In this document: positions 49,242 through 64,000 of the stretch, piece by piece | How positions within the stretch are numbered: position 1 is the first letter of the stretch | Layout of the letters: every line of letters starts with the position of its first letter | NCBI GenBank assembly: GCA_964408855.1 | Contig: CAYPBB010000004.1 | Span: 51,764 to 115,763, forward strand | Direction of reading: 5' to 3' | Source: an uncultured Ectothiorhodospiraceae bacterium | Lineage (GTDB): Bacteria > Bacteroidota > Ignavibacteria > SZUA-365 > GCA-2699105 | Length of the DNA: 64,000 nt | Notes under the pieces: model-generated | What the model saw: the letters and a program-made list of their open reading frames with translations, nothing else | Told to the model about the DNA's origin: nothing | Database searches by the model: none | Made by a program: the position numbers and the translations under genes

Positions 49242-50075
49242 TTACCAGTCGGTGCGTTCCAAACCGAAAACATTCAATTTGCCGTTCACGTGCAGGTTTT
49301 TATCGATGATATTATTGTTTGCGTCCACCGTTTGAGAATGGCAATTCGAGCATGTGGACGGGAAGCTTGCGTGCTGCTGTCCTTTTGGCTTCGGATCGCC
49401 GGTTGCCGGGTTGCCGTGGCACGACCCGCACTTCGCCTGATCGGTCCCTTTCCAGGAGACTGTTGCGTTATTTCCGCCTGTAAAGTTTCCGTGGCAGTAG
49501 GTATTTGCGCAGCCCGCACCGTCCTGTTGGAAGGAGGGAGTGCCGGAAGTACCAATCGTTACGGTGTTTGCCAGTGCGATGTTCAGCACGACTTCCGCTC
49601 CGTCCGGATTGCTGCCGCCGATGTGATTCGGATCGTCGAATCCGGTTATCGCCGGGTGGCAGTTCGTGCAGACCAAATTGAGAGAGGAACTGAGGCCCTG
49701 ATCGATATGCCTGCCGTGGGTTGCATACCAATATGGATAATTGGTCCCCCGGTCGCGTTCGCCGTGGCACGTATAACACGCTTCCGGTCCGCCGTCTTCC
49801 GCCCGGTGGCATCCCGATGTTGTACAGGAAACCTTTGCGATCCCTCCTGCATAGTCCTTTCCGTGACAGGTCGTGCAATTCTCCAGACTCCAGCCGTTCG
49901 ATCGGATCACCGTTCCGTGCCAATCGGGAGACGAGGGACTCGTCATACCCGGCGGATGGATGCCGTTCAGTGCCGGCGCAATCGGAAGATCTCCCTTATC
50001 CTTTAGCTCGCTTGAACAACCGGCAATCGCAAGCATTGCGAACGCCAGTCCTGCTAGTATTACTCGTGCGTTCAT
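49242..50075 (-). CDS. multiheme c-type cytochrome lipoprotein
   Basis: Lipoprotein signal (LAIAGCSSE). Five canonical CxxCH (CTTCH, CYTCH, CTNCH, CGSCH, CSNCH) plus two Cx4CH-like motifs (CTTSGCH, CANTYCH). 277 aa. Start overlaps the upstream gene by 4 nt. Confidence 0.7.
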   Translation of the reverse strand: MNARVILAGLAFAMLAIAGCSSELKDKGDLPIAPALNGIHPPGMTSPSSPDWHGTVIRSNGWSLENCTTCHGKDYAGGIAKVSCTTSGCHRAEDGGPEACYTCHGERDRGTNYPYWYATHGRHIDQGLSSSLNLVCTNCHPAITGFDDPNHIGGSNPDGAEVVLNIALANTVTIGTSGTPSFQQDGAGCANTYCHGNFTGGNNATVSWKGTDQAKCGSCHGNPATGDPKPKGQQHASFPSTCSNCHSQTVDANNNIIDKNLHVNGKLNVFGLERTDW

Positions 50076-51151: not shown

Positions 51152-52479
51152 TGCGCTTCCTCCTTGGTCGACCATCCGAGAGGATCGTTGAACCAATAGT
51201 TGATCCTGAGCAAGCCGCGCGTATCCGATTTATAAATGCGGTTGCTCATGTATTGCCCCTGCAGATCGATGGAGACGATTGGGATGGGGCGGTAGGTAAG
51301 ACCGGCAATGCCTGCCCACGCCGACGTTTTTTCGAGCTTATCGGATAGGGCGTAGTTGCTGTACACGACGCCTGCATGCGGCGTGAGTTTGTTTTCAAGA
51401 AACGGATACCGGAATTCGAAATTCAGTCCGTCGAGATCTCCATCCCAGCTCATGTCCTTTGTGTACATGATGGCGGCGTATTTATGCGATGCGCCGACGG
51501 AGAACCGGTACGCCGTCGATTCAAGACCGTCGATTTCCGGATAATCGTCGCCGGCGTTGTAGATGACCGCCGAAAAACGTCCCATCAACGTGATGCGTGG
51601 ATGAATCTTGTAGTCGATGCCGAGCACCGCCTCCTGATTCGCGCTCATCTCGAGGATGGAGAAATACGAATTCCAGGCGATAGTGGGCGCACGATGGGCG
51701 AGATTCAGAGATAGCCCCAGGTTGTCCAACGCCTGGTATGTCGCCGCAACTTCGGCGCGGGAGGCCTGCTCGAAATTGAAATCGTAATCGAATCTTACGT
51801 ACAGCCAGACGTTGTCGACAAGATAGCTGACGTTCAGACTGCCGTACTGGTTGGCGCGCGAACCGTAATCGATGGTTGTGGTCACCGCCTGACCGAGCGG
51901 ATCGAGCCGCAGGGCTTCGAACGGTGTCGATTCGCGGTGCCGGTTCATGTAACTCAATCCGAGCTTCATATTCTCGACGAGGTACAACGATACCTGCGCG
52001 CCGATCTGCCAGTTGTCTTCGAGATTGTTGAAGAAATCGGTTCTCTGCGATGGGGGAGTCAACCCGCCGCCGTAGCCCATGATTTCAACGCGGTTCGATG
52101 GACGTACGCGGATAGATGCGCCGTCTACGGTCCCGTAATTGACACCGGCATACACCGCCTGCCTTCCGAGACGGAGGTCGATCATATCTGCGACGTTCTT
52201 CACATTGATGTATGCGTTGAACAACCGCAATCTTGGATCGTGATCCATCTCGGTATCGAAATCGGTCGATGCCTGCATGTAGGTGTGGAACGAAATGTCT
52301 GCCGTTCCAAAGTTGAGTTGAATGTTCTCGTATGCTCTCAGGTGCGTTGTCGACGAGTCGGTTGAAAACGAGCGTTCCCAGCCATAGACGGTCGTCACCA
52401 GCCTGCCGTTCAGGACCTGCGCCGTCGAGACGCCTGAAAGCACGACGAGAAACAGAACAACAGTACAAACCTTTTGCAT
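51148..52479 (-). CDS. putative outer-membrane beta-barrel (porin-like) protein of a porin-cytochrome conduit
   Basis: Signal peptide MQKVCTVVLFLVVLSGVSTAQ. 443 aa, rich in Tyr/Gly/Asn with alternating hydrophobic beta-strand pattern. Flanked on both sides by multiheme cytochrome genes. Confidence 0.5.
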   Translation of the reverse strand: MQKVCTVVLFLVVLSGVSTAQVLNGRLVTTVYGWERSFSTDSSTTHLRAYENIQLNFGTADISFHTYMQASTDFDTEMDHDPRLRLFNAYINVKNVADMIDLRLGRQAVYAGVNYGTVDGASIRVRPSNRVEIMGYGGGLTPPSQRTDFFNNLEDNWQIGAQVSLYLVENMKLGLSYMNRHRESTPFEALRLDPLGQAVTTTIDYGSRANQYGSLNVSYLVDNVWLYVRFDYDFNFEQASRAEVAATYQALDNLGLSLNLAHRAPTIAWNSYFSILEMSANQEAVLGIDYKIHPRITLMGRFSAVIYNAGDDYPEIDGLESTAYRFSVGASHKYAAIMYTKDMSWDGDLDGLNFEFRYPFLENKLTPHAGVVYSNYALSDKLEKTSAWAGIAGLTYRPIPIVSIDLQGQYMSNRIYKSDTRGLLRINYWFNDPLGWSTKEEAQ

Positions 52480-52544
52480 ATGTTCGTCCTTTAGTTCTGT
52501 TGACCAGAATGAGAGTTGTTAATTGCTTGAATTTGGATAACTGC

Positions 52545-52586
52545 GGGGTAAAAACAAAACAGGCGGACCCGCATGGGATCCGCCTG
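52545..52586 (-). terminator. putative terminator/attenuator downstream of tetraheme cytochrome gene
   Basis: Hairpin CAGGCGGA(CC)...(GGGA)TCCGCCTG with a U-run on the minus transcript (plus GGGGTAAAAACAAAAC). Confidence 0.4.
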
Positions 52587-52599
52587 CGGTCTAGATTGA

Positions 52600-53160
52600 C
52601 TATTTTGGCAAACCGTGCTCGATTTTCGCCCACATTTCCTTCATTTTGAAGGCTTTATATGTCGGGCTTTTTTCGTTGTGGCACTGCTTGCAATGCTTTT
52701 CGGCGCTGCCGTCGGCCACCTTGGGTAATTCCAGTCCGAGTTTCTTCGCTTCTTCAAGCTGTTCGGGTTTGTTGTGTTTCGTCTTGAACAGCGATGCAGC
52801 ACCGTGGCACGATTCGCAGCCGACGCCTTCGGCTTTGTCGAACTTCGCGTCGAACTTCGCAGCTTTTTCCATCATCCCGGTAACATGGCAACTGAGGCAT
52901 TCCGGCGTTTCGGCTGCCTTGGTTTTAAAGCCTTTGTCTGCCGCGATTTTGTCCGCAGCGGGTGTTTGAAGGGTTTTGAACGCACTGGCATGGGCGCTCG
53001 ACTCCCATTTGGCGTACACTTTACCGCCCTTGTCGGTGTTATGGCATCCTTTGCACGACTTGGCGCCGACGTATTGCGGCGAATCGGCTGGCGTGAGAGT
53101 GAATGCGCACAACGCCACAAAAACGATCGATCCGAGAATTGGCACGACGACTCGTTTCAT
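52600..53160 (-). CDS. periplasmic tetraheme c-type cytochrome
   Basis: Signal peptide. Four CxxCH (CKGCH, CLSCH, CESCH, CKQCH). 186 aa, Lys-rich. Confidence 0.8.
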   Translation of the reverse strand: MKRVVVPILGSIVFVALCAFTLTPADSPQYVGAKSCKGCHNTDKGGKVYAKWESSAHASAFKTLQTPAADKIAADKGFKTKAAETPECLSCHVTGMMEKAAKFDAKFDKAEGVGCESCHGAASLFKTKHNKPEQLEEAKKLGLELPKVADGSAEKHCKQCHNEKSPTYKAFKMKEMWAKIEHGLPK

Positions 53161-53267
53161 TTTCTCCTCGATTCATTGGTGAATGGATTATTGATTTGTG
53201 TATGTATTGCAAAAAGCAGTTGCATGGGTTCGGTATCTGGAGTCCTATGTCCTCTACTTCTATGTAT

Positions 53268-55538
53268 TTACGACTGAGGATGTTCCTTCGCGCCGTTCAC
53301 GCTTTCTTCGTCGTCGGTGATGATTGTCACATCACCGGCTTTCGCCTTCAGGCGCTCGAGTTCAAGTGGATGCTCTTCGAGCATTTCATGCTCGGTGAGG
53401 GTACCCTTGAACCAGGCGACATTCATCGGATATACGTCTGGGTTGAAGATGATAAAGTAAAAATGCCAGACGATGATAGCAAGCGTTGCGAGCCATGCTT
53501 CGTAAAAATGGATGATGGTCATGATATCGAGGAATTCCTTCGAGGTCATCGCTCCGAAAAACTCATGGAACCACAGCATCAGACCCGTCGCGCCCATCAC
53601 GATCGTGCCCCAGATCAACGCCCAGTATTCGGCTTTCTCCATATAACTGAATCTGTCGAACCTCGGCCGGTCGCCGGTTCTGCCGAGGTACCACTTGAAT
53701 GCCTGAAGCGCATCTTTCACATCTTTCCAGATAGGCAGCATATCCTTGATGAACTGTCTGCCGCGTTTGGTGGCGACCATGTACCAGATGTGATACAGCG
53801 ACGCAGCGAGCATGACGGCTCCGGCAATTCTGTGAAGAACGCCGCGCAGTTCAAACGCCGGTTCGCCGAGAATCTCGCGGATGTATACCACCCACCATGC
53901 ATTGGGGTAGGTCAATCCAAAGCCGGTGAATACGAGCAGAATGAAACTCAGTGCGAGCGTCGCGTGCTGGATTCGCTCGCTCAGCGTCATTCTCAGATAT
54001 AGATTGTGGGCAACCTCGTGCTGGTGACCTCTACGGCGGGCTTTCAGCTTTTCGAGCGCCTTCTTCCTGAAATCAAGCAGATTGTGGAAGAGCATCCCGC
54101 CGATTGTCAGTACGATGAGCAGGATGTAGATCGTCGTGATCGTGTATTGAATTCCGGATTCCTTCTCGGTGCGGACAACATGGATCGGACCTTTTGTAAA
54201 GCTCTCGGAGGCGTTCGGATGGCACTTCCCGCATGTTTGTTTCAAATTGGAGGGATGAATGCTCGACGTTGAATCGCTCGATGGTTTAATGCTATGCGCG
54301 CCGTGGCAGCTCGCGCAATTCGCTGCGACTTTCGATCCGCCCTGAACGGCGAGCCCGTGATAGCTGTCGAGATAGCTTTCTCCGGGATTCGCGACGATAC
54401 CGTATTTGTCTGCCATGCGCACCGAGTTGTGGCAGGGAAGACACACCTTCTCCGGAAGGTTGCGGCTGTTTACCGGCGATTGCTTTGAATCGACGGCAAG
54501 AATGCCGTGTTCTCCGTGGCAATCGGTACAAGATGGCGCATCGCGGACGCCGCGCGCAAGCGCCGAACCATGGATGCTCTCGTTGAATTCCGTTTTGATG
54601 GCATCGTGACATTTCCCGCATGTAGTCGGAATTTTCAGCTTGTTCACTTTCGAGTCCGCGACAGACCCGGGCGCTACTTCGTGCGCTCCGTGGCAATCGA
54701 TGCAGTTTGCAGCATCAGCATTACCGCGGTGCAGCGACATCCCGTGGATGCTATGCTCATACGCATCGATGAAACCGGCGCTTGTCGCCATGCGCGATTT
54801 CACATCGTCGTCGTTTTGATGGCATGAAAGGCAGAGTTTTTCCTGCGCAATCTTCAGGTCCAGCTTGCTCAGTCCGCTGCTGGGCGTGATCGATTTGGAG
54901 TGGCACGAAATACATGTCGGCGCGCCTTTGACATTGGCGGCGACTGCTTTCCCGTGCCACGATGCGTTGAATGTCGCGACCTCGGCGCTGTGGCATGTGC
55001 CGCACGACTTGTTCAGATTTGCGCTGGAAAATGGAGAAGCCGGGTTTTTCGGAGCGACGACATTATGTGTTCCGTGGCACTCCTTGCACGCCGATTGCAA
55101 ACGTCCGGCAGTCTTAGCGGCATTCAGCATTGAGGCGTGGAATTTGTGCGTCTGCAGCGCGTCTTTATGGCAGCTTGTACACTGCACCGGAGTGATTTTC
55201 TCTTTATGCGGCACATCGTCGGGATTGAATCCGACATGACAAGAGATACAACTCAGCTTGCTATGAGGAGAGGCTTTCAGAATCTTCGGATTGGTGTAGA
55301 GCGAAACCTCTCTCCCGTTTTTCTCCATCGTCAAATCTTTATCGTTATGGCAAGCCTGACAATCGGCGACCGATTGGGCGATACTTTGTCCGCTGAATAT
55401 CAGCAGTACCGCCGCAGACAGGAATGCCAGAAGCTGGGTCCTTTTCATCGAAGTATACCTGCTTTCGGAGCAAATCTGGCGTTTGTTAAATTCAACGTGC
55501 TTCCTTTCTGGTGTAGTATTCATGGGTTTGCGCGGCAT
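53268..55538 (-). CDS. CbcL-like fusion: periplasmic multiheme (13 CxxCH) c-type cytochrome domain plus C-terminal membrane di-heme cytochrome b (HydC/FdnI-type) domain
   Basis: Signal/anchor. Thirteen CxxCH motifs in the N-terminal roughly 430 aa. C-terminal roughly 300 aa carries 4-5 TM helices with conserved His (HNLLDF, HRIAGAV, HFYEAW, WHFYFI), as in Ni/Fe-hydrogenase / formate-dehydrogenase b-type cytochrome subunits. Confidence 0.7.
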   Translation of the reverse strand: MPRKPMNTTPERKHVEFNKRQICSESRYTSMKRTQLLAFLSAAVLLIFSGQSIAQSVADCQACHNDKDLTMEKNGREVSLYTNPKILKASPHSKLSCISCHVGFNPDDVPHKEKITPVQCTSCHKDALQTHKFHASMLNAAKTAGRLQSACKECHGTHNVVAPKNPASPFSSANLNKSCGTCHSAEVATFNASWHGKAVAANVKGAPTCISCHSKSITPSSGLSKLDLKIAQEKLCLSCHQNDDDVKSRMATSAGFIDAYEHSIHGMSLHRGNADAANCIDCHGAHEVAPGSVADSKVNKLKIPTTCGKCHDAIKTEFNESIHGSALARGVRDAPSCTDCHGEHGILAVDSKQSPVNSRNLPEKVCLPCHNSVRMADKYGIVANPGESYLDSYHGLAVQGGSKVAANCASCHGAHSIKPSSDSTSSIHPSNLKQTCGKCHPNASESFTKGPIHVVRTEKESGIQYTITTIYILLIVLTIGGMLFHNLLDFRKKALEKLKARRRGHQHEVAHNLYLRMTLSERIQHATLALSFILLVFTGFGLTYPNAWWVVYIREILGEPAFELRGVLHRIAGAVMLAASLYHIWYMVATKRGRQFIKDMLPIWKDVKDALQAFKWYLGRTGDRPRFDRFSYMEKAEYWALIWGTIVMGATGLMLWFHEFFGAMTSKEFLDIMTIIHFYEAWLATLAIIVWHFYFIIFNPDVYPMNVAWFKGTLTEHEMLEEHPLELERLKAKAGDVTIITDDEESVNGAKEHPQS

Positions 55539-55589
55539 AAGTGCGTCACCAGTATGTTATAAGATCAGTGCATTCATTGATGGAATCGG

Positions 55590-57080
55590 TCAGTTCCCGA
55601 GATGGCAATCGGAACAATTCGCGGTTTTCCATGCATCGTCGATATCCGACGGATGGTTGAACTCCATTCCGTCGAGGCTGCTTACAGGACTTGTCGCCGG
55701 TCCCTGTCTAATTATTGCATGGCAGACCGAACAGTCGTTCGATATGACCTTGCCGTCTTCCGAAACGTGCTTGTTATCGTGGCAGCGGAAACAGCCGATA
55801 TTGTACATATGCCCGATGTTGTTTGGATAGGCTTTCCAATTGACCTTCATTTCGGCGAAGAAATTCCTCGAATAAATTCTCATTATCTCCGTGATCGCGC
55901 GCTCTACATCCTGGGAGCGGGTTTTCAGGATTTCCGGAGCGCGTTCGCGGTATTCGCCGCGGATGATGTCGGGAATCTCCAAACGAGCCTGTGTTGACGT
56001 CGCGAACTCGCGGGTCATTGCATACGAAGCGATGCCTCTGATACCCGGGAGCGTAGGATCGATCTTGCCGTTCGCCATAGCGTCGTTGATTGTCCGGAAC
56101 GGCGGATAGTAGATATGAGAAGGACGGTTATGGCAGTCGATGCAATCCATTTTGCGCTTCTCGTATTTCCCGATTTCCTTCCCGGAAATCTCATGGTCCT
56201 TCGAACGGAATATCCGTACTTCGCCTTTCAGGTTCTTGCTCATGACCCAGGGGATGACCTGGCGTTTATCGTCGGACGCGATATAGGTTATTTCCTGTTC
56301 GGTATTCATATGCCAATGGATGCCTTCCGTAGGACCCAATTCGCTCTGTCCGCCGCCGATTTTAAGATCCATTTCGATGATCCACGGCACGGTTCCTGTT
56401 GTATCGATCGGGAAGTACACCTTCTTCAATTTCTTTTCGGCGGTGAATTTGCTGGGCCAGTGGCATTCCTCGCACGTTTCGCGCGCCGGACGCAGGTTGT
56501 GGACGGGCGTTTCGATTGGCCGGTGATACTTATCGAAGATGACCGAGTACACCTGGTACATACCGCTGATCTTGGCTTTGACGAACCAATCAGCGCCGGT
56601 GCCGATATGGCACTCGGCGCAGGCGACGCGGGCATGCGGGGAATGCTGGTACGCAGTATACTCGGGGTTCATGACCTCATGGCATACTTCGCCGCAGAAC
56701 TCAACCGATTCGGAATAGGTGTAGGTCTGATACATACCTGCCGCGGAGATAACGATCAGGAACATCGTTCCCACAGTGAAGATCATCACCGCCATGCGAT
56801 GGCGGGGCAGATTCAGATCGAGGTGGATGTACCGGCGCGGTTCGCCGTGGCGTTTCCGCCGCCGGCGCCGTTCCCAAAGAATACCGATAGGGATGAGGAA
56901 GAGTCCGGCAAACATGATTCCCGGAAGAATCATATACGTGAAGATCCCGAGATAGGGCGAACTGGTAAAGCCAAGCACATCCATCATGAAGAACACGAAG
57001 ATGCTGCCCAGAGTCAGGAGGGTGATTCCTACTCCGGCAAGGCTAATCGGATTGTAGACGATATCCGGCAATCTTCTCAT
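55590..57080 (-). CDS. ImcH-like inner-membrane multiheme c-type cytochrome (NapC/NirT-like quinol dehydrogenase family)
   Basis: Two or three N-terminal TM helices. Six CxxCH (CAECH, CEECH, CIDCH, CFRCH, CSVCH, CSDCH) plus one Cx3CH (CGEVCH). 496 aa. Confidence 0.6.
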   Translation of the reverse strand: MRRLPDIVYNPISLAGVGITLLTLGSIFVFFMMDVLGFTSSPYLGIFTYMILPGIMFAGLFLIPIGILWERRRRRKRHGEPRRYIHLDLNLPRHRMAVMIFTVGTMFLIVISAAGMYQTYTYSESVEFCGEVCHEVMNPEYTAYQHSPHARVACAECHIGTGADWFVKAKISGMYQVYSVIFDKYHRPIETPVHNLRPARETCEECHWPSKFTAEKKLKKVYFPIDTTGTVPWIIEMDLKIGGGQSELGPTEGIHWHMNTEQEITYIASDDKRQVIPWVMSKNLKGEVRIFRSKDHEISGKEIGKYEKRKMDCIDCHNRPSHIYYPPFRTINDAMANGKIDPTLPGIRGIASYAMTREFATSTQARLEIPDIIRGEYRERAPEILKTRSQDVERAITEIMRIYSRNFFAEMKVNWKAYPNNIGHMYNIGCFRCHDNKHVSEDGKVISNDCSVCHAIIRQGPATSPVSSLDGMEFNHPSDIDDAWKTANCSDCHLGN

Positions 57081-57378: not shown

Positions 57379-57933
57379 TTACGCTTGAGCGGTCTTCAAG
57401 TCATCGATACGCGATTGAACTACGCCTTCGCATTCGCGGCAATAGTACGCCTCCTTCAGGTCGATGTCTTCTACATACGTGGACGCATTCATCGCGCATC
57501 CTGGATTGATGCAATGGCGCAATCCGAACGTATGCCCAAGTTCGTGGACTGCTTCCTTCAGCGAGCGCTGGTAAAGCATGTGCGGCGATGGCTGCAGCCC
57601 GTAGAACTCGTTGTGGAGCCGGAACGTGGAAAACACGGAAGCGCGGTTATCGACCTGCGCCTGTCCGAACAGAAACGTCAGCACGGGCAGGAATAAATCG
57701 TAGCTCGTCACGCCGAGTATTTTCGAAACGCCCGCAGGCGCATGTTCGAGAAGCATTGCCAGGATACGCGCGGAATGATATTGCCTTCGCGATGAATCAT
57801 GCGCATCGTGTATAGGTAGCGCCAGATTCACCGGTTCTACAGGGAGATGGTAGACCAACGCCAGATCGGTGCAGAACTCCTGCAAGGGAAGCGGCGTATT
57901 CAGGGCTATCGGTACCACGTGTATCTTAACCAT
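57379..57933 (-). CDS. archaemetzincin-like zinc metalloprotease
   Basis: HELGHTFGLRHC motif followed by CxxC (CAMNASTYVEDIDLKEAYYCRECE), characteristic of the archaemetzincin (AmzA) family. 184 aa. Confidence 0.65.
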   Translation of the reverse strand: MVKIHVVPIALNTPLPLQEFCTDLALVYHLPVEPVNLALPIHDAHDSSRRQYHSARILAMLLEHAPAGVSKILGVTSYDLFLPVLTFLFGQAQVDNRASVFSTFRLHNEFYGLQPSPHMLYQRSLKEAVHELGHTFGLRHCINPGCAMNASTYVEDIDLKEAYYCRECEGVVQSRIDDLKTAQA

Positions 57934-57943
57934 TCAGATCGCA

Positions 57944-59305
57944 TTAATCGGGGCGTTTAAGGCCGTATTTTTCGATTTTATTGTACAAGGTTACCCGGTC
58001 GATTCCGAGCCGGTCGGCGCTGCGGGTAATATTCCAATTCAGATCGTCGAGCGTTTTCATGATATGGAAGCGTTCCATGTCCGCAAGCGACTCGCTAGCG
58101 CTTTGGTTGCCTGCCGAGGAAAGCTGCATCGGAAGATGTTTCAACCGTATCGCTTCGTCGCCGCAAACGACCATGGCGCGTTCGATAGCGTTCTCCAACT
58201 CACGCACGTTGCCGGGCCATGGGTATCCAACCATCGACTCGATCGCTTCGGGAGTGATATTCCGGGACTGTTTATTCATTCTGGTTGCGTACTTTTTCAC
58301 GAAGTGCGCAGCGAGTATGGGAATGTCGCTCCTCCGGTCGCGCAGTGGGGGAACGTGAATCGCGAATACGTTAATTCTATAGTAGAGGTCTTCCCGAAAC
58401 GTACCTTCTTTCACCGCTTTTTCCAAGTCCATATTCGTCGCGCATACCAGTCTGAAGTCGACATGGATTTGTTTCTCGCCGCCGACTCGTTGAAACTGTT
58501 TGCTTTCCAGGACGCGCAGCAAATCGACTTGGGATTTCAGACTGAGCGTTCCGATTTCATCCAGAAACAGCGTTCCGCCGTTCGCCATCTCGAAGCTGCC
58601 TTTCCGGCGGTACTGCGCGCCGGTAAATGCGCCTTTCTCGTGACCAAACAGCTCGCTCTCGATAAGCGAATCAGCAAGGGCGCCGCAGTTCACCGGTATG
58701 ATCGGGAAATACTTCCGTTCGCTGTTCGAATGAATCGCTTTAGCGATCAGCTCTTTCCCGGTCCCGCTCTCGCCAAGAATCAGTACGGTAGAATCGGTGG
58801 GCGCAACCGTGCGTATCAACTCGAACACCGATTGCATTCCTGTGCTTTCGCCGATGAAATCCTCGACGTTGTGCAGCGTTTCAATCCGTTCCTTGAGCTG
58901 CACGTTTTCCTTTTTCAGCATCCGCTGATGCGCGGCGTTCCGAACCATCACCGTTAGCTCATCCGGATCCACCGGCTTCGTCACGTAATCGAAGGCGCCG
59001 GCTTTCAGCGCTCTGACAGCCGAATCCACCGCGGCGAATGCCGTGATGATGATGATGACAATCTCGCCGTCGAATTCCCTGATTCGGTCCTGCAGCGCAA
59101 GTCCGTCCATACCGGGCATCTTGATATCGAGAAGAATGATGTCGATCGTGGACTTCTGGATCAGATTCAGCGCGTCGGCGGCGTTTTCGGCAGTGCTGAC
59201 CTGATATCCTTCGTCGAGGAACCATTCGCAAAGCGACTCGCGAACGGATAGTTCGTCGTCGACGATAAGGATATGGATGGATGCGCGGTCGAGTGTTTGG
59301 TTCAT
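57944..59305 (-). CDS. sigma-54-dependent response regulator (NtrC/Fis family: REC + AAA+ sigma54-interaction + HTH)
   Basis: REC domain ([18 protein letters not shown]). Walker [15 protein letters not shown] sigma54-contact motif. C-terminal Fis-type HTH. Confidence 0.85.
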
Positions 59306-59359: not shown

Positions 59360-61090
59360 TTACGATCCCTCCTGTGGACCGTCGGCTGGGAGGAGGACAC
59401 GGAATGCCGTTCCTTTCCCCAATTCGCTCATTACTTTAATATCGCCTTTGTGCCGCTTGACGATGCCGTAGACGATAGAGAGACCGAGACCTGTGCCGTG
59501 TCCGACTTCTTTTGTCGTTACGAAAGGTTCGAACAAACGCGGCAGGAGCGTTTCATCGATACCGCTGCCGTTGTCCTTGACGGTGATCTCGGCGATGGAA
59601 TGTTGGATCTCCGCGCTGATGCGGATCGTCCCTCCGTCCTGCATCGCCTCGATGCTGTTGACAACAAGCGCGATGATCATTTGCTGTATCTGATTGGCGT
59701 CGCAGACAATGGTTGTCTCCTCGCTTCTGAAATCCTGCACCAGCCGCACCATCTGCATATCGGCTTTGTGTTGAATCAGCCGCACACATTTATCGATCGT
59801 ATCCCTCAAATCGGTTTTTGTATACGAGGCCGAGTCGCTTCTGGCGAAGAACAGGAGGTTCTTCACGATATCGCCGCAGCGCTTCGCTTCGTCGGCAATG
59901 AGCGTGGAATCCTTCATGATTTTTTCGATCATTTCGGGCGTAAGTTCCATTCGGGACATTCTGCTCCTGATCAGCCGCGCATACGTAAGTATACCCGAGA
60001 GGGGATTGTTCAACTCGTGCGCGATCATCGAACTCAACTGCCCGAGCGACGCCATTTTTTCGATATGGACGACCTGCGCCTGCACCTCCTGAAGTTCGCG
60101 CGTTTTTTCTTCCACTTTCTGTTCGAGCGTGTTGGACCATTCGACAAGCTCTGCCTTTGCCGCCTTGATATCCGACGCCATTTCGTTGAACGAACGGTTT
60201 AGCATCCCAAGCTCGTTCTTTGTATCGACCGCGAGCTTGTAATCGAGGTTGCCTGCGGAGATAGCCTTTGTTCCATCGATCAGTTTCTGAACGGGGCGGT
60301 GGACGAATGAAACAATGAAGAATCCTGCGACACTGCCGACCGCGAGAAGCGAAATGAGCGCGCTTATTATGAGCATGTTGCGGCTCTTGTCGGTGTATTC
60401 GTCGACCATTTCCATGGAAAGCTGCACATCGAGAACGCCGAGGATCGTTTGGTCGGGGGTATGAACATGACAGCTTTGGTAGCACTCGCGTTCGTTCTGA
60501 ATCGGATTGATCAGTCCGAGCACCCGGTGTCCCGAAGCGGCCTCGTATACGCGCAAATACTGATCGGTCTTGGTTTTATTAAATCCGTCGCCCGAGCCGT
60601 GGCACATGGTGCAGGCGTCGGCGTCGACATCGACCACGCGACCGATTTCCGTGCTATCGGAGCTATACCGGATTACTCCGGCTTTGTCGTACACCCGGAT
60701 GCGTTCGGTACCCTTGGTCTTTCCCAGATCCATGATAGTGAATGCAATGGATTCGATGTCGTTGTGCTGCATGCCATAGCGCAACGACCGCTTGGTCATT
60801 TCCGAAGTGCGCTCGGCGCAACCTTCAACGGCCTTCGAAAAGTACCGCATTTCGGAGGTAACATTATAATAGGTAGTAATGGACAGTACCAGTACCAGAG
60901 CCAGTACAAGGAGGATGATTATTTTGAAACTCAGCGACTGATACAGTTTCATCGTTCCGTCCATAATAAAGGACATTCCCGTCTGTAAAGTAGTAAAGAA
61001 AAGCGCCTTTTTCAAGGCGCTGTAAAAAAAATCAACAACATTATTGCATGCCGTAATAAATACGCTGAAAATCCCTATGTTTTTCGCCAC
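59360..61090 (-). CDS. sensor histidine kinase with periplasmic domain carrying c-type heme-binding motifs
   Basis: TM, roughly 170 aa periplasmic segment, second TM, HAMP-like linker, coiled coil, HisKA (H-box IAHELNNPL), HATPase (G-boxes). The periplasmic segment contains CTMCH (CxxCH) and CYQSCH (Cx3CH). True start may be an internal Met near 60952. 16-nt overlap with the upstream gene. Confidence 0.8.
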   Translation of the reverse strand: MAKNIGIFSVFITACNNVVDFFYSALKKALFFTTLQTGMSFIMDGTMKLYQSLSFKIIILLVLALVLVLSITTYYNVTSEMRYFSKAVEGCAERTSEMTKRSLRYGMQHNDIESIAFTIMDLGKTKGTERIRVYDKAGVIRYSSDSTEIGRVVDVDADACTMCHGSGDGFNKTKTDQYLRVYEAASGHRVLGLINPIQNERECYQSCHVHTPDQTILGVLDVQLSMEMVDEYTDKSRNMLIISALISLLAVGSVAGFFIVSFVHRPVQKLIDGTKAISAGNLDYKLAVDTKNELGMLNRSFNEMASDIKAAKAELVEWSNTLEQKVEEKTRELQEVQAQVVHIEKMASLGQLSSMIAHELNNPLSGILTYARLIRSRMSRMELTPEMIEKIMKDSTLIADEAKRCGDIVKNLLFFARSDSASYTKTDLRDTIDKCVRLIQHKADMQMVRLVQDFRSEETTIVCDANQIQQMIIALVVNSIEAMQDGGTIRISAEIQHSIAEITVKDNGSGIDETLLPRLFEPFVTTKEVGHGTGLGLSIVYGIVKRHKGDIKVMSELGKGTAFRVLLPADGPQEGS

Positions 61091-61866
61091 GCGTTGAGTT
61101 TTTCAACGATGAATTGTTGATACGAGTCATCGCCGAATGCCATTTCAAGGTCTTCGACCGGCTGACCTCCGTCGTTGAGACAGATCCCTGGAAGTGGAGG
61201 CTGAAGCAATGCCTGTGCCGCCGAATCCATGAACTCGGTCATCATTGATTGTATGTGGCGTTCTGCCTCGTCGACTGAAGCGAGCGGAGAGTGCTCTCCT
61301 GCGGTTTCGTCGCTTTTTATTACAGCCAGCCAGCCGCGCTCATATGGCGATGTGCGGATATCGTTCGTCACTTTCCCGAACGATCCATTGCGTCTTACGA
61401 TAGAACCCCGGAACGGCGATAATAATGGAACGGTACATCCGCCAAGGTAAATCCACCCGAATGGGTTTTCCATTTCGGTATCGCTTTCGGCTGCGAGCGT
61501 GATGATATCGGCATTCTTCGGGAGGATGCGCAGAAGATAGGCATCGATCCCGACGCGGAAATATCCGCCAGGAAGCTGCTGTACCCACAATTGACCGGGC
61601 GTGTAACGATACTCGGTATGCAAGGATACGGAGGAATACGGTTTCAGCAGCGTCGCCACTTCTTCGGGTATTTCGGCCGCGATAGGCACGCGTACCGAAC
61701 GAAGCATATCTTCCGCGCGTCCCGCCGCTCTCGGAAATTCGCGCTGCAGAACGCTGTCCAGCGGGCAGTGTTCGCAATCGAAGTTTCTGTCGCAGCGTTT
61801 GTAGGATAGCACGCCGGCATTCATCCATACGCAGCAGTCGTTGCATTTTTCAAATCTTACCAGCAT
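61075..61866 (-). CDS. GcvH-like (glycine-cleavage H fold) protein lacking the lipoyl-lysine, with N-terminal Cys-rich motif
   Basis: N-terminal C..CC...C..C..C cluster (CNDCCVWMNAGVLSYKRCDRNFDCEHCP). Central and C-terminal segments align to the GcvH pattern (VGIDAY...; SPYERGWLAVIKS), but no SVKA lipoylation motif. Confidence 0.45.
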   Translation of the reverse strand: MLVRFEKCNDCCVWMNAGVLSYKRCDRNFDCEHCPLDSVLQREFPRAAGRAEDMLRSVRVPIAAEIPEEVATLLKPYSSVSLHTEYRYTPGQLWVQQLPGGYFRVGIDAYLLRILPKNADIITLAAESDTEMENPFGWIYLGGCTVPLLSPFRGSIVRRNGSFGKVTNDIRTSPYERGWLAVIKSDETAGEHSPLASVDEAERHIQSMMTEFMDSAAQALLQPPLPGICLNDGGQPVEDLEMAFGDDSYQQFIVEKLNAWRKT

Positions 61867-61911
61867 TGTGTCCTCCCAGTAGTAGGTACTGGAATTATTG
61901 AGTTACGCATG

Positions 61912-63096
61912 TTATGCCTGTGCCGGTTCGGATTCCATCGCTCTCACGGATCCGATTTCGATGATGATTTCCTCGTCGGCATGTTCTTCCGGGAAGATGG
62001 GCAGGTATTGAACGGCTTTCGAGAAAATGAAGAAGCCGAATGTAACGATGCCTCCGGTGATCATGATTTCCTCGAACGAGGGGAAGTAGACGCCCCCATA
62101 GTACGAGTCGAGCGAGGTGGTGGTGACGTTGAGCCGGTTCGCGACAAATCCGAGCACGACCGATATAGAGATGAAGAACAACCCAAGACGGGTTCTGCGG
62201 AACTGCTTCATCGCATATAGCGCGACCGGGAGAACGACGAATAAACCAAGCTCGAGCAGCAGCATGTTGGATTCAAGCGTTCCGTTGAAGAGCGTGCCCA
62301 GCAGTCCTTTGCCGCCGAGATCGAGCAGGCGCATCGTGGTATAGACGAGCAACACGGCAATCATGATGCGCGCGAGATTGAATAACAGCGGCGTTTCGAG
62401 CGTGCGCTTGAATGCCCGCGAACTGAAGTACGATTCGACGATCGTCATTCCGATACCCACGGCAACAGCCGAGACGAAGAAGAACACCGGCAGCATCGGC
62501 GAGTACCAGAACGGATGCATCTTTTGCGGAATGATCAGGTACAGACTGCCCAGCGACGATTGATGAAGCATGGACAGCAGGATGCCCGCGATGACAAGCG
62601 GAATGGTGATTGCCTTGACGATCTTCAATGTCCGCGTGAGTTTAAAACGTTCCAGCACGACGGGACTGAATTCCAGCGCCAGCACCGTTGAATAGAGCAT
62701 CACGCACCATGCGACCTCGAACATAACGGAGTGGGGATTCCACATAATGATGGCATGCCAGATCGCCCAGGGACGTCCAAGATCGAACATCAATCCGGCA
62801 ATCACGAGCGTGTAACCGAGAAAGGCAGTCAGCACCGTAGGACGGACAATTGGTTTGAATTGCTTTATGTTGAAAATGTAGACGATGGCGCACAGTGTGA
62901 AGCCCCCGGCTGCGAGTCCTACACCGGTAACCACATCGAATCCGATCCACAAACCCCAGGGAGTGGCATCGGAAAGGTGGGTGGTGGCCCCCAGTCCGTA
63001 GACGAACCGCCGGAACGTCACGATCGCAGCGCCGACGATGAAAAACATACCGACAACGCGCCAGAAGGTAATCTTGGGAATAGCGAAACGTTTCAT
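61912..63096 (-). CDS. NrfD/PsrC-family integral membrane quinone-interacting subunit
   Basis: 394 aa, about 10 TM helices. N-terminal pattern (PWGLWIGFDVVTGVGLAAGGF) typical of NrfD/PsrC/HmcC-type subunits. Confidence 0.8.
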   Translation of the reverse strand: MKRFAIPKITFWRVVGMFFIVGAAIVTFRRFVYGLGATTHLSDATPWGLWIGFDVVTGVGLAAGGFTLCAIVYIFNIKQFKPIVRPTVLTAFLGYTLVIAGLMFDLGRPWAIWHAIIMWNPHSVMFEVAWCVMLYSTVLALEFSPVVLERFKLTRTLKIVKAITIPLVIAGILLSMLHQSSLGSLYLIIPQKMHPFWYSPMLPVFFFVSAVAVGIGMTIVESYFSSRAFKRTLETPLLFNLARIMIAVLLVYTTMRLLDLGGKGLLGTLFNGTLESNMLLLELGLFVVLPVALYAMKQFRRTRLGLFFISISVVLGFVANRLNVTTTSLDSYYGGVYFPSFEEIMITGGIVTFGFFIFSKAVQYLPIFPEEHADEEIIIEIGSVRAMESEPAQA

Positions 63097-63106
63097 GGCA
63101 TCCTCC

Positions 63107-63862
63107 TTAGCGCTTGGGGTTGTTACGTTGTTCGAGTTCGGCGTGTTGCCGTACTTCTTCGCGGCGGCTGGTGATCCAGTACACCGCCGAGAGCATCACT
63201 CCGGCAGTGGCGACGATGTTGGGAAGCTTCGAGAGGACATTCCATGTATGGTTCGGCAGCGCCTCCATACCGACCTTCGTTGCGAATCCCAATTGTTCGA
63301 ACGGCACGCTCGAGAGATAGAGGATCGAGGTCCCGCCGGCTTCGCCCTGTCCATAGACGCGCTTCACGTAGGTATCGGGCGAATCGTTGATGCGTTGCAG
63401 CGCCTCGGCGAGAAGTTCGTCGCGCTTGCCGAATTTCGTCGCCTCAGCCGGGCAGGCTTCGCTGCAGGCGGTCGGCAATCCCTTGCTCGTGCGCTCGTCG
63501 TAGCACATCGTGCATTTGCGGATGCGCGGCGAGTTGCTGGACCATTCGTACTTGGGAATTTCGAACGGACATGCAAGCATACAGTACCGGCAACCGAGAC
63601 ACTTATCGGCATCGTAGTTGACGGGTCCTTCCTTCGATTTGTATAGCGCGCCGACCGGGCACACGCTGGCGCATGCGGGCTGTGCGCAATGCTGGCACAT
63701 CCGGCGGATGTACAGGTCGTTTTTTTCTTCAATGAACGTAAAGTTGTTGGCGGTGAGCGCCTTGATTTCCTTTACCGGAAACTTGTGCGATTCCTGGCAT
63801 GCGGTTTGGCACGCACCGCAGCCGACGCACAGCGTCAGATCTATCAATAATCCGTACGGCAT
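63107..63862 (-). CDS. 4Fe-4S ferredoxin-type iron-sulfur subunit (NrfC/PsrB/HmcB-like), four [4Fe-4S] binding motifs
   Basis: Four Cys clusters: CVGCGACQTAC; CQHCAQPACASVCP; CLGCRYCMLACP; CTMCYD...CSEACP. Directly upstream of the NrfD-like gene. Confidence 0.85.
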   Translation of the reverse strand: MPYGLLIDLTLCVGCGACQTACQESHKFPVKEIKALTANNFTFIEEKNDLYIRRMCQHCAQPACASVCPVGALYKSKEGPVNYDADKCLGCRYCMLACPFEIPKYEWSSNSPRIRKCTMCYDERTSKGLPTACSEACPAEATKFGKRDELLAEALQRINDSPDTYVKRVYGQGEAGGTSILYLSSVPFEQLGFATKVGMEALPNHTWNVLSKLPNIVATAGVMLSAVYWITSRREEVRQHAELEQRNNPKR

Positions 63863-63916: not shown

Positions 63917-64000
63917 TTAGCGTAGGAAATTCTGTTCGAATTCCTTCAGCGCCGCTTCGTCCAGCAGTTCCAGCGTGCCCGATACCGCCACGCCGCCGTC
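63917..64000 (-). CDS. 3' end of an upstream gene continuing beyond the window (unknown product)
   Basis: Open minus-strand frame ending ...LELLDEAALKEFEQNFLR with stop complement at 63917-63919. Only 28 codons visible. Confidence 0.3.
   Translation of the reverse strand, partial: DGGVAVSGTLELLDEAALKEFEQNFLR

What the first reader, a model, noticed from the sequence alone, without database searches (positions are those of the whole stretch)
61075..63862. NrfC-like 4x[4Fe-4S] subunit, NrfD-like membrane subunit and a non-lipoylatable GcvH-like Cys-rich protein
An NrfCD/PsrBC/HmcBC-type quinone-interacting module lies upstream of the regulators, with another gene continuing beyond the window. 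It is followed by a 263-aa protein with a GcvH fold signature but no lipoyl-lysine motif, and an extra N-terminal Cys cluster (C..CC..C..C..C). GcvH-like proteins without the lipoylation site, fused to a Cys-rich module and encoded with respiratory membrane complexes, are not a standard arrangement. The protein could be a redox carrier or assembly factor. The 16-nt overlap with the kinase gene suggests translational coupling.
Basis: partly seen in the sequence, partly recalled or inferred. Interest (0 to 1): 0.5.

Follow-up and report, generated by a model that had tools for sequence, protein, structure and literature searches.

The report
Lysine-less H-protein pair in redox-sensing cassette
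The Cys-rich GcvH-like gene is real and cannot be lipoylated, but it is best read as one of two paralogous adaptor proteins in a conserved, undescribed gene cassette that joins a heme-type sensor kinase, a sigma-54 activator, an archaemetzincin protease and usually a quinone-interacting iron-sulfur/NrfD module.

Summary

- Only four of the six N-terminal Cys are conserved (C-x12-C-x5-C-x2-C, invariant in 99/99).
- The gene running off the window is not a catalytic subunit. It is a membrane-anchored paralogue of the same GcvH-like protein.
- The 16-nt overlap with the kinase is a longest-ORF artefact. The kinase starts at 60952, after a 122-nt spacer holding a terminator-like hairpin.

The order GcvH-TM / FeS / NrfD / Cys-GcvH / kinase / sigma-54 regulator / archaemetzincin recurs in 171 species genomes from several phyla. 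Some loci lack FeS/NrfD but keep the rest. Both the GcvH-like domain and the 4-Cys module also occur fused to receiver domains. An invariant DGG loop tracks the presence of the archaemetzincin gene (54/0/2/15).

Best reading: a signalling adaptor, not a lipoyl or electron carrier. The mechanism is inferred from genomic evidence only. Export of the Tat-less Fe-S subunit is unexplained.

The parts
63917..64000 (-). Last 27 codons plus stop of the upstream gene. It encodes a 224-aa membrane-anchored GcvH-like paralogue (GcvH-TM). The window happens to begin at its invariant D-G-G motif (DGGVAVSGTLELLDEAALKEFEQNFLR*).
   Evidence: The same contig (L001 272-946) and a 70%-identical homologue (L004 7263-7937) give the full gene. 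The AF2 model shows a TM helix at 2-24, a GcvH core and a C-terminal helical extension. hhalign against the Cys-GcvH family gives prob 99.9%, E 8.8e-36 over 188 columns. The lipoyl column is G/N/D/S and never Lys.
63107..63862 (-). HybA/HmcB-like ferredoxin, 251 aa. It has four [4Fe-4S] Cys motifs and a C-terminal TM helix with a basic tail. It has no Tat signal.
   Evidence: Cys at 12/15/18/22, 56/59/64/68, 88/91/94/98, 117/120/133/137. Only 54 nt separate it from the in-frame stop of the preceding gene, and no start codon lies between them. 45 of 72 homologues lack a Tat signal and 27 have one.
61912..63096 (-). NrfD-family membrane subunit (HmcC/HybB-like), 394 aa, about 10 TM helices, N-terminus inside.
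   Evidence: Pfam NrfD 74 bits. NCBIfam HmcC 313 bits and HybB-type 298 bits, both below their equivalog cut-offs. The K+R loop bias is about 16 inside versus 4 outside. It is identical in homologues with Tat and non-Tat partners.
61075..61866 (-). Cys-GcvH, 263 aa. It combines an N-terminal 4-Cys module, a non-lipoylatable H-protein fold and a C-terminal helical extension with a DGG loop.
   Evidence: The family has 99 proteins in the 5.8e9-protein database and occurs in 171 of 185,579 species genomes.
61756..61833 (-). 4-Cys module, residues 12-37: C12-V-W14-M...Y22-K-x-C25-D-x2-F29-x-C31-x2-C34-x2-D37. It is presumed to bind a metal (Fe-S or Zn).
   Evidence: Invariant in 99/99 homologues. 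No Pfam hit at E<=1 and no PDB sequence hit. AF2 pLDDT is 41-58. The module's profile finds 1019 representative proteins, including tandem copies and REC fusions.
61249..61614 (-). H-protein (GcvH) fold core, residues about 85-206. The hairpin that carries lipoyl-Lys in GcvH has Gly143 here.
61165..61173 (-). D232-G233-G234 loop in the C-terminal extension. It is conserved in both paralogues and co-distributed with the archaemetzincin gene.
   Evidence: D 94, G 92 and G 95 of 99. The motif is 116/116 in GcvH-TM. M54/DGG contingency is 54/0/2/15, with about 5 co-located changes on the tree.
61002..61021 (-). Terminator-like hairpin AGCGCCTT-GAAA-AAGGCGCT followed by TTTCTTT, lying between Cys-GcvH and the kinase.
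   Evidence: Sequence read.
59360..60952 (-). Sensor histidine kinase, 530 aa from the corrected start. Its periplasmic domain carries CTMCH and CYQSCH (heme-c-type motifs), followed by HAMP, HisKA and HATPase domains.
   Evidence: The start is set by alignment with homologues. CxxCH plus Cx3-4CH about 43 residues apart occur in 76 of 78 cassette kinases. There is a weak match to the Geobacter class-40H heme sensor family PF21563.
57944..59305 (-). Sigma-54-dependent response regulator (REC, AAA+ and HTH_8 domains), 453 aa.
   Evidence: Present within 6 kb in 51 of 54 well-flanked loci.
57379..57933 (-). Archaemetzincin-family (M54) metalloprotease with an intact HELGHTFGLRHC motif.
   Evidence: NCBIfam archmetzin 145.6 bits against a cut-off of 145. 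Pfam Peptidase_M54 75.5 bits. Present in 35 of 54 well-flanked loci. Its presence tracks the DGG loop.

Best explanation
The 263-aa ORF belongs to an undescribed protein family with three parts: (i) an N-terminal C-x12-C-x5-C-x2-C metal-binding module, (ii) an H-protein (GcvH) fold that has lost the lipoyl lysine, and (iii) a C-terminal helical extension with a D-G-G loop. Its paralogue, the gene running off the window, has the same core but a transmembrane anchor in place of the Cys module.

Together they are standing parts of a conserved cassette: GcvH-TM / HybA-like FeS / HybB-like NrfD / Cys-GcvH / kinase with heme-c-type motifs / sigma-54 response regulator / archaemetzincin. The first four genes sit behind a sigma-54-type promoter.

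Most likely mechanism (inferred, not shown): the kinase reads periplasmic redox state through c-type heme. The sigma-54 regulator switches on the four-gene operon. The two GcvH-like proteins act on the cytoplasmic side as non-catalytic adaptors rather than as lipoyl or electron carriers. One is tethered to the membrane. The other is soluble and gated by its 4-Cys (Fe-S or Zn) module. They dock through the H-protein fold and DGG loop on the archaemetzincin, as a cleavage or binding site, and/or on the kinase/regulator or the cytoplasmic face of NrfD. This would couple the state of the quinone-linked Fe-S/NrfD module to signalling.
For: Shown:
- Fold and loss of the lipoyl Lys.
- The two GcvH-like proteins are paralogues, including the C-terminal extension.
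- Synteny across at least 7 phyla. Of 54 well-flanked loci, HK is present in 53, RR in 51, GcvH-TM in 49, NrfD in 47, FeS in 43 and M54 in 35.
- Minimal cassettes without FeS/NrfD keep both GcvH-like genes with HK, RR and M54 (L064, L083, L043).
- REC-GcvH (268 aa) and TM-REC-GcvH (387 aa) fusions occur in paralogous clusters.
- The 4-Cys module also occurs as REC+2xCys proteins next to sigma-54 regulators.
- Sigma-54-type -24/-12 sites lie about 55 nt upstream of GcvH-TM: L004 TGGCACGTGCTTTGCC and L001 TGGCACGCGGATTGTA. 19 of 277 such sites in 2.86 Mb fall within 400 nt upstream of GcvH-TM genes, against about 3.5 expected.
- 76 of 78 kinases carry CxxCH plus Cx3-4CH.
- M54 gene and DGG loop co-distribution is 54/0/2/15, Fisher p 1.5e-13, with about 5 co-located changes on a tree.

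Established knowledge used:
- NrfD subunits carry no redox cofactor (PMC8076601).
- Archaemetzincins have no known substrate and look auto-occluded. The Myxococcus homologue CarG acts in a transcription-factor complex (PMC3427221).
Against: - No physical interaction, metal content, cleavage or expression data exist. Everything past fold and synteny is inference.
- Gene order places Cys-GcvH inside the FeS/NrfD operon in most loci, separated from the kinase here by a terminator-like hairpin. That fits a structural subunit of the membrane complex equally well.
- The sigma-54 site of this very contig has GT rather than GC at -12 and lies outside the window.
- The M54/DGG correlation is partly phylogenetic, resting on about 5 events and not 71 independent points. 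M54 could also be encoded elsewhere in the 'M54-minus' genomes.
- The heme-binding nature of the kinase motifs is untested.
Confidence: 0.45

Rival explanations
1. Cytoplasmic redox subunit or electron carrier of the FeS/NrfD complex. The 4-Cys module would bind a [4Fe-4S] cluster and pass electrons between the membrane module and a cytoplasmic partner, as HmcF or DsrK do in Hmc and Dsr complexes.
For: - The gene lies directly after nrfD in 43 of 45 non-Tat loci.
- Four invariant Cys are compatible with an Fe-S cluster.
- Its paralogue is membrane-anchored next to the complex.
Against: - NrfD-family subunits have no heme or other cofactor to carry electrons across the membrane (PMC8076601), and the operon encodes no cytochrome b.
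- Topology puts the four-cluster ferredoxin on the opposite (P) side.
- The protein persists where FeS/NrfD are absent.
- The same domains are fused to receiver domains.
Confidence: 0.2
2. Zinc-finger-type transcription cofactor. Cys-GcvH and the archaemetzincin would form a complex with the sigma-54 activator or RNA polymerase, as CarG (a non-proteolytic archaemetzincin homologue) does with CarD in Myxococcus. GcvH-TM would act as a membrane-tethered decoy.
For: - M54/DGG co-distribution.
- The CarG precedent (PMC3427221).
- REC+2xCys proteins look like small response regulators whose output is the Cys module.
- A weak zf-CHY-like hit in one of them.
Against: - The window's M54 keeps the catalytic Glu (HELGH), unlike CarG (NCBIfam archmetzin passes while Myxo_non_zincin fails).
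- No DNA-binding family was detected.
- There is only one CxxC knuckle, so this is not a classical zinc ribbon.
Confidence: 0.15
3. Maturation or export chaperone for the Tat-less Fe-S subunit (REMP-like assembly factor).
For: The window's FeS subunit lacks a Tat signal and no Tat-bearing partner is encoded nearby. This is an unexplained export problem.
Against: - Cys-GcvH is equally present where the FeS subunit has its own Tat signal (27 loci) and where there is no FeS gene at all.
- It has no similarity to NarJ/DmsD/TorD-type chaperones.
Confidence: 0.1
4. An ordinary GcvH paralogue working in glycine cleavage or lipoate relay, with a mis-called start.
For: Pfam GCV_H is above its gathering score. 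Source annotations read 'glycine cleavage system H protein'.
Against: - No Lys at or conserved near the lipoyl position in 99 homologues.
- TIGR00527 scores 22.5 bits against a cut-off of 115.85.
- The Cys module is invariant, so the start is right.
- No gcvT, gcvP or lipoate ligase appears in any of the loci inspected.
Confidence: 0.01

Closest known systems
Glycine cleavage system H protein (GcvH, PF01597) and GcvH-L of Streptococcus pyogenes (PDB 5a35)
   Different: - No lipoyl lysine.
- An extra 4-Cys N-terminal module and an extra roughly 60-residue C-terminal extension with a DGG loop.
- Not encoded with gcvT/gcvP, nor with the SirTM/macrodomain partners of GcvH-L.
LbpA lipoate-binding proteins of sulfur-oxidising sHdr systems (from my own knowledge, not tested here)
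   Same: GcvH-like proteins encoded with a respiratory or redox enzyme complex rather than with glycine cleavage genes.
   Different: LbpA keeps the lipoyl lysine and comes with dedicated lipoate-assembly genes. Here the lysine is absent and no such genes are nearby.
HmcBC / NhcBC / HybAB modules (four-cluster ferredoxin plus NrfD-family subunit)
   Same: - Best NCBIfam hits are HmcB/HybA and HmcC/HybB.
- 16 Cys in four motifs and a C-terminal TM anchor.
- A 10-TM NrfD with its N-terminus inside.
- Related loci with a Tat-type FeS are followed by a 12-18-heme cytochrome c, as in Hmc/Nhc.
   Different: - Scores are below all equivalog cut-offs.
- In the window there is no cytochrome or hydrogenase partner in the operon and no Tat signal on the FeS subunit.
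- The module is flanked by two GcvH-like genes.
FdnH, beta subunit of formate dehydrogenase-N (TIGR01582; its export route is from my own knowledge)
   Same: A four-cluster ferredoxin with a C-terminal TM helix and no signal peptide (FDH-beta hit of 114 bits).
   Different: FdnH rides out with Tat-signal-bearing FdnG. No such partner is encoded here.
NqrA / RnfC N-terminal barrel-sandwich hybrid domains
   Different: Only distant structural similarity. In NqrA and RnfC these are domains of larger catalytic subunits, not separate proteins with sensory N-termini.
Lipoyl domain L2 bound by pyruvate dehydrogenase kinases (PDB 3crk, 1y8n)
   Different: The PDK-L2 interaction depends on the lipoyl-lysine arm. 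There is no evidence here for a kinase contact.
Archaemetzincins (AmzA; CarG of Myxococcus xanthus)
   Same: The cassette's last gene passes the NCBIfam archaemetzincin model. The family has no known substrate, and CarG acts in transcriptional regulation (PMC3427221).
   Different: The catalytic Glu is retained here. Its presence tracks a DGG loop in two co-encoded proteins, which would be a first candidate partner or substrate.
Geobacter periplasmic heme-c PAS sensors (GSU0582/GSU0935; PF21563)
   Same: A periplasmic sensor domain with a CxxCH motif on a membrane signalling protein. Weak PF21563 match (E 0.004, below cut-off).
   Different: Here there are two motifs (CxxCH and Cx3-4CH) and the output is a histidine kinase. 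Family membership is not established.

Membership tests
GcvH (glycine cleavage H protein) | H-protein barrel-sandwich fold / Pfam PF01597 above the gathering score | tested here: met
GcvH (glycine cleavage H protein) | Lipoyl-attachment lysine at the tip of the hairpin (E. coli K65 with Met counted; 8 residues before the conserved Pro) | tested here: not met
   Gly143 in the window protein. The column is W 78, A 7, G 4, N 3, F 3, S 2 of 99, and the neighbouring columns have no conserved Lys.
GcvH (glycine cleavage H protein) | Scores as an equivalog in NCBIfam (TIGR00527 / NF002270) | tested here: not met
   22.5 bits against 115.85, and 33.6 bits against 117.
GcvH (glycine cleavage H protein) | Encoded with or used by gcvT/gcvP or 2-oxoacid dehydrogenase/lipoate ligase genes | tested here: not met
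   None in the window's neighbourhood or in the gene tables of L001, L004-L008 and L010. Whole genomes were not examined.
HmcB / HybA (four-cluster ferredoxin of NrfD-type complexes) | Four CxxCxxCxxxC-type motifs plus a C-terminal TM anchor | tested here: met
   16 Cys in four groups. A hydrophobic C-terminal helix is followed by SRREEVRQH...KR.
HmcB / HybA (four-cluster ferredoxin of NrfD-type complexes) | Twin-arginine signal peptide | tested here: not met
   The ORF starts MPYGLLIDLTLCVGCGAC. Only 54 nt separate it from the in-frame upstream stop, with no start codon between. 27 of 72 syntenic homologues do have one.
HmcB / HybA and HmcC / HybB equivalogs | NCBIfam equivalog cut-offs | tested here: not met
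   HmcB 241.7 against 420. HybA 200.8 against 263. HmcC 313.1 against 550. HybB-type 297.8 against 450.
NrfD family (PF03916) | Pfam model above threshold; polytopic membrane protein without heme motifs | tested here: met
   74 bits against 25.8. About 10 hydrophobic segments and a strong positive-inside bias.
Hmc/Nhc/Hyb complexes | Periplasmic catalytic or cytochrome partner encoded in the operon | tested here: not met
   The operon is GcvH-TM / FeS / NrfD / Cys-GcvH only. A 12-18-heme cytochrome follows NrfD only in the Tat-type relatives.
Archaemetzincin (M54) | HExxHxxGxxHC motif plus a Cys4 element; NCBIfam NF033823 cut-off | tested here: met
   HELGHTFGLRHC...C...C...CxxC read. 145.6 bits against 145, which is borderline.
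Sigma-54-dependent two-component system | Kinase with HisKA/HATPase; regulator with REC, Sigma54_activat and HTH_8; a -24/-12 promoter at a target | tested here: met
   Domains. GG-N10-GC sites lie upstream of GcvH-TM in many loci. The site on this contig is TGGCAC-N5-TTGT, outside the window.
c-type heme sensor domain | Covalent heme at CxxCH in a periplasmic domain | not testable with these tools
   The motifs are conserved in 76 of 78 kinases and lie between two TM segments. Heme attachment needs biochemistry.

The most novel reading that the evidence does not exclude
Lysine-less H-protein folds and the new 4-Cys module would form a previously unrecognised domain toolkit of sigma-54-type two-component signalling. 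In this cassette they would link a heme-based periplasmic redox sensor to a menaquinone-interacting Fe-S/NrfD module, with an archaemetzincin acting as a dedicated protease or partner that recognises their DGG loop. That would be a proteolytic or docking switch controlling respiration, and would give bacterial archaemetzincins their first physiological substrate.
Probability: 0.25. Interest if true: 0.8.

Novelty: new variant of a known kind. Interest (0 to 1): 0.58.

Why it matters
- A gene routinely annotated 'glycine cleavage system H protein' turns out to be part of a conserved seven-gene cassette. It occurs in Ignavibacteria/Bacteroidota, Planctomycetota, Acidobacteriota, Myxococcota, Gemmatimonadota and others, often next to extracellular-electron-transfer cytochromes as in this window.
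- It defines two uncharacterised modules: the 4-Cys domain and the GcvH-like-plus-DGG unit.
- It shows both modules fused to receiver domains.
- It offers the first concrete candidate partner for archaemetzincins, whose substrates are unknown.
- It raises a clean cell-biology question: how a Tat-less four-cluster ferredoxin reaches the periplasmic face of NrfD.
- Each point can be tested with standard biochemistry in a cultivable Ignavibacterium or Melioribacter relative, or heterologously.

Tried and rejected
- **Catalytic subunit upstream of 64000.** Rejected. The gene is a GcvH-like paralogue, and in L004 the operon starts there.
- **Kinase overlap and translational coupling.** Rejected.
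- **Inverted NrfD topology to explain the Tat-less FeS subunit.** Rejected. The K+R loop bias is the same with Tat and non-Tat partners.
- **Intramembrane salt bridge between the conserved Asp17 of GcvH-TM and the Lys/Arg at the kinase's TM1.** Rejected for lack of covariation.
- **Sigma-54-like site inside the Cys-GcvH gene (61205-61220).** Not above chance: 24 matches in the window against 25.8 expected.
- **Identity of the 4-Cys module.** No Pfam family at E<=1, no PDB sequence match, and a low-confidence AF2 model.
- **Anti-phage defence link.** No PADLOC hits.
- **Literature.** No paper combining GcvH-like with NrfD, or GcvH with histidine kinase, sigma-54 and heme.
- **Organism name.** The cluster look-up gave no names.
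- **AFDB Foldseek.** The library was unavailable.
- **A flawed step.** My first tblastn kinase query was out of frame. It was redone correctly.

Full report
**1. What is in the window**

On the minus strand, one search lists four ORFs: 63862..63107 (251 aa), 63096..61912 (394 aa), 61866..61075 (263 aa) and a kinase ORF whose longest form starts at 61090.

- The 251-aa protein matches the 4Fe-4S dicluster families. In NCBIfam its best hits are HmcB (242 bits) and HybA (201 bits), both below their equivalog cut-offs.
- It has 16 cysteines in four ferredoxin-type groups, then a C-terminal hydrophobic helix with a basic tail.
- The 394-aa protein matches Pfam NrfD (74 bits), HmcC (313 bits) and HybB-type subunits (298 bits).
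- The 263-aa protein matches Pfam GCV_H over residues 87-206 (36.4 bits, cut-off 22.2). It is far below the GcvH equivalog cut-offs.

**2. The GcvH-like protein**

The lipoyl lysine of GcvH lies eight residues before a conserved proline. That column is Gly143 here and Trp in 78 of 99 relatives. No neighbouring column has a conserved lysine.

The N-terminal Cys region is not an artefact of the start codon. C12, W14, C25, C31 and C34 are invariant in all 99 homologues, and M15, Y22, K23, D26, F29 and D37 are nearly so. The module is C-x12-C-x5-C-x2-C.

It matches no Pfam family at E<=1 and no PDB sequence. AlphaFold models it with low confidence (pLDDT 41-58). Which metal it binds is open.

**3. 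What lies beyond the window, and the kinase start**

The same contig occurs in public assemblies (L001). A homologous locus with a 46%-identical Cys-GcvH (L004) was also found. The gene that runs off the window encodes a 224-aa protein with three parts: an N-terminal transmembrane helix (MVALFVILFFAVLLTVDLIIQARKK), a GcvH-like domain, and a C-terminal extension ending ...MLDGGVAVSG...FEQNFLR. Its last 27 codons are window 64000..63917.

Profile-profile comparison with the Cys-GcvH family gives probability 99.9% and E 8.8e-36 over 188 columns. The aligned region includes the extension and its 'G-x-T-M-x-D-G-G' motif. The AF2 model has the same layout behind a TM helix. In this family too the lipoyl column is G/N/D/S and the next one R/K/H.

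So the FeS/NrfD pair is bracketed by two paralogous, lysine-less GcvH-like proteins, one membrane-anchored and one with a Cys module. In L004 divergently transcribed unrelated genes precede GcvH-TM, so there is no molybdopterin or cytochrome subunit.

The kinase's '16-nt overlap' comes from taking the longest ORF. Four homologous kinases all start MK(I/L/F)(Y/H)x(S/T)L(S/A)FK, which corresponds to ATG 60952. The 122-nt spacer holds an 8-bp GC-rich hairpin with a GAAA loop and a T-tract (61021..61002).

**4. A conserved cassette**

The first word-based search found only 7 relatives of Cys-GcvH. A profile search found 99. A scan of one genome per species found 171 genomes of 185,579. They are mostly Ignavibacteria and other Bacteroidota, with Planctomycetota (Phycisphaerales), Acidobacteriota, Myxococcota, Gemmatimonadota, Eisenbacteria, KSB1 and Calditrichales as well.

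I called ORFs in 80 of these loci and compared them with the window's proteins. The recurring order is GcvH-TM / FeS / NrfD / Cys-GcvH / kinase / sigma-54 regulator / archaemetzincin. In Planctomycetota and Gemmatimonadota the kinase and regulator are divergent, followed by Cys-GcvH / GcvH-TM / FeS / NrfD.

For 54 loci with at least 4.5 kb on both sides, the number with each partner within 6 kb is:

| Partner | Loci (of 54) |
|---|---|
| Kinase | 53 |
| Sigma-54 regulator | 51 |
| GcvH-TM | 49 |
| NrfD | 47 |
| FeS | 43 |
| M54 | 35 |

Several loci keep GcvH-TM, Cys-GcvH, kinase, regulator and M54 but have no FeS/NrfD. L064 is the cleanest example. Cys-GcvH is thus tied most tightly to the two-component system.

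**5. Regulation and sensing**

A sigma-54-type site lies about 55 nt before the GcvH-TM start codon in L004 (TGGCACGTGCTTTGCC). The same position on the window's own contig reads TGGCACGCGGATTGTA, with GT instead of GC at -12, and is outside the window. Across all loci, 19 of 277 such sites in 2.86 Mb fall within 400 nt upstream of GcvH-TM genes, against roughly 3.5 expected.

The kinase has a periplasmic domain between two TM segments. It carries CxxCH and, about 43 residues later, Cx3-4CH in 76 of 78 cassettes. It also shows a weak similarity to the Geobacter heme-c sensor family PF21563. I infer a heme-based periplasmic redox or ligand sensor. Heme attachment is untested.

**6. Evidence that the GcvH-like and 4-Cys units are signalling modules**

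- In Ignavibacteria loci a second, divergent cluster encodes a Tat-type FeS, NrfD, a 13-heme cytochrome and a related kinase.
- That cluster also encodes a 268-aa receiver-GcvH fusion and, in some loci, a 387-aa TM-receiver-GcvH fusion. Pfam Response_reg scores 86-99 bits and GCV_H 63-68 bits.
- A profile of the 4-Cys module alone finds 1019 representative proteins among 1.84 billion.
- Of the best 150, 80 are one to four modules followed by a GcvH-like domain. Seven are receiver domains followed by two modules. The rest are short or fragments.
- One receiver+2xCys gene lies between a Cache-HAMP kinase and a sigma-54 activator.

The pattern is variable inputs (TM anchor, receiver, 4-Cys) on a constant GcvH-like unit, plus receiver+4-Cys proteins. 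This is the domain logic of signal transduction, not of an electron-transfer chain.

**7. The archaemetzincin link**

The D-G-G motif in the C-terminal extension is nearly invariant in both paralogues.

- Scoring loci for the M54 gene and the motif gives 54 with both, 15 with neither, 2 with the motif only and none with M54 only. Fisher p is 1.5e-13.
- On a neighbour-joining tree of the Cys-GcvH proteins each trait changes about five times, in the same places.
- The DGG motif of GcvH-TM behaves the same way.

The published record says archaemetzincins have no known substrate and crystallise with occluded active sites. The Myxococcus homologue CarG works within a transcription-factor complex (PMC3427221). 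The window's protein keeps the catalytic HExxH glutamate. I infer that the DGG loop is the protease's docking or cleavage site. This is correlation, not proof, and M54 copies elsewhere in the genomes were not counted.

**8. The Fe-S/NrfD module and an unresolved problem**

The window's FeS subunit has no signal peptide. Only 54 nt separate its ATG from the in-frame stop of the preceding gene. Among syntenic homologues 45 lack and 27 have a classical twin-arginine signal.

- The Tat-type modules are followed by 12-18-heme cytochromes (Hmc/Nhc-like), and their GcvH-TM has two TM helices.
- The Tat-less modules are followed directly by Cys-GcvH, and their GcvH-TM has one helix.
- The positive-inside bias of NrfD is identical in both groups (about 16 K+R inside against 4-5 outside).
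- The FeS tail after the anchor is basic.

These features place the Fe-S domain on the periplasmic side in both groups, as for FdnH, which rides out with a Tat-bearing partner. No such partner is in the cassette. The review of NrfD complexes (PMC8076601) lists P-side and N-side complexes but nothing like this arrangement. I leave this as unexplained.

**9. Interpretation**

Shown:
- the fold;
- the loss of the lysine;
- the invariant 4-Cys module;
- paralogy with a membrane-anchored partner;
- conserved synteny;
- sigma-54-type sites;
- conserved heme-type motifs in the kinase;
- receiver fusions;
- M54/DGG co-distribution.

Inferred:
- the two GcvH-like proteins are cytoplasmic adaptors of a redox-sensing sigma-54 system;
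- the Cys module is a sensory or metal-binding input;
- the DGG loop meets the archaemetzincin;
- the FeS/NrfD pair is the respiratory element that the cassette controls or monitors.

In this window and in L004 the cassette is followed by ImcH-like and CbcL-like inner-membrane cytochromes, further multiheme cytochromes and a T9SS-tailed outer cytochrome. That fits a role in regulating extracellular electron transfer, but the downstream genes differ in other lineages.

The rival readings are an electron-carrying subunit, a zinc-finger transcription cofactor and an assembly chaperone. They remain possible at lower probability. A plain GcvH is excluded.

**10. Novelty**

No Pfam, NCBIfam or PADLOC model describes the family or the cassette. 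Full-text searches found no paper on it.

The parts belong to known kinds: two-component systems, NrfD-type modules, H-protein fold, archaemetzincin. The combination and the two new modules are undescribed. I rate it a new variant of a known kind, with moderate-to-high interest. The evidence is purely comparative.

Noticed in passing
window 60599-60613 and 60467-60484 (minus strand; kinase residues CTMCH and CYQSCH): The cassette's histidine kinase has two heme-c-type motifs (CxxCH and Cx3-4CH) about 43 residues apart in its periplasmic domain. They are conserved in 76 of 78 homologous cassettes. The domain has a weak match to the Geobacter heme-sensor family PF21563.
   Followed up: partly
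window 57379-57933 (M54) and 61165-61173 (DGG loop of Cys-GcvH); also window 63992-64000 (DGG of GcvH-TM): Presence of the archaemetzincin gene in the cassette tracks the D-G-G loop of both GcvH-like proteins (54 both, 15 neither, 2 loop only, 0 protease only). About five co-located changes appear on a tree. This may be the first candidate partner or substrate for a bacterial archaemetzincin.
   Followed up: partly
window 63107-63862: The four-cluster ferredoxin lacks a Tat signal, although NrfD topology and its own basic C-terminal tail predict a periplasmic location. 45 of 72 syntenic homologues share this and 27 have a normal Tat signal. No Tat-bearing partner is in the operon.
   Followed up: partly
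window 46753-57080 (minus strand): Directly downstream of the cassette lies an extracellular-electron-transfer-type cluster:
- a 496-aa NapC/NirT-like 6-heme protein (ImcH-like, 55590-57080);
- a 756-aa fusion of 13 CxxCH motifs with a cytochrome b561 domain (CbcL-like, 53268-55538);
- a 4-heme protein (52600-53160);
- a 443-aa protein with no Pfam match (51148-52479, possibly a porin);
- two more cytochromes (50072-51196 and 49242-50075);
- a 9-heme protein with a T9SS sorting tail (46753-48774).
The same follows in L004.
   Followed up: partly
L059 134-940 and 950-2818; L035 5807-6970; also L021, L065, L067, L071, L078, L087: A paralogous cluster in Ignavibacteria encodes a Tat-type FeS, NrfD, a 13-heme cytochrome, a kinase with the same heme motifs plus Cys-rich inserts in its ATPase domain, a receiver-GcvH fusion (268 aa) and a TM-receiver-GcvH fusion (387 aa).
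   Followed up: partly
P0230-P0370 (representative proteins); L091 3499-4281: The 4-Cys module is a widespread mobile domain (1019 representative proteins). It occurs in one to four tandem copies before GcvH-like domains and as receiver+2xCys proteins next to sigma-54 regulators. A second module subtype reads (R/K)KCRYML(T/S)G..SYK(I/L)C.N.Y(E/Q)C..C.FDQMMQ. Some proteins add an N-terminal MKCPFLE...YC motif (P0242, P0312).
   Followed up: partly
L001 200-215 and L004 7193-7208 (outside the window, about 55 nt upstream of the GcvH-TM start): There is a sigma-54-type -24/-12 promoter-like site at the same position in both loci. The one on the window's own contig has TTGT instead of TTGC at -12.
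   Followed up: partly
window 61205-61220 (minus strand, inside the Cys-GcvH coding region): CGGCACAGGCATTGCT is one mismatch from the sigma-54 consensus and lies about 250 nt upstream of the kinase start. The number of such matches in the window is no more than chance (24 against 25.8 expected), so it carries little weight.
   Followed up: yes
GcvH-TM family (P0008 residue 17; the gene lies beyond window position 64000): A conserved Asp (101 of 116, Glu in 11) sits inside the single transmembrane helix of the membrane-anchored paralogue. No covarying partner residue was found in the kinase.
   Followed up: partly
L020, L021, L023, L026, L035, L040, L048 (gene after NrfD): A third kind of GcvH-like membrane protein follows NrfD in Tat-type clusters. 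Its N-terminus reads ...ATKG(I/M)EYL followed by a TM helix.
   Followed up: no
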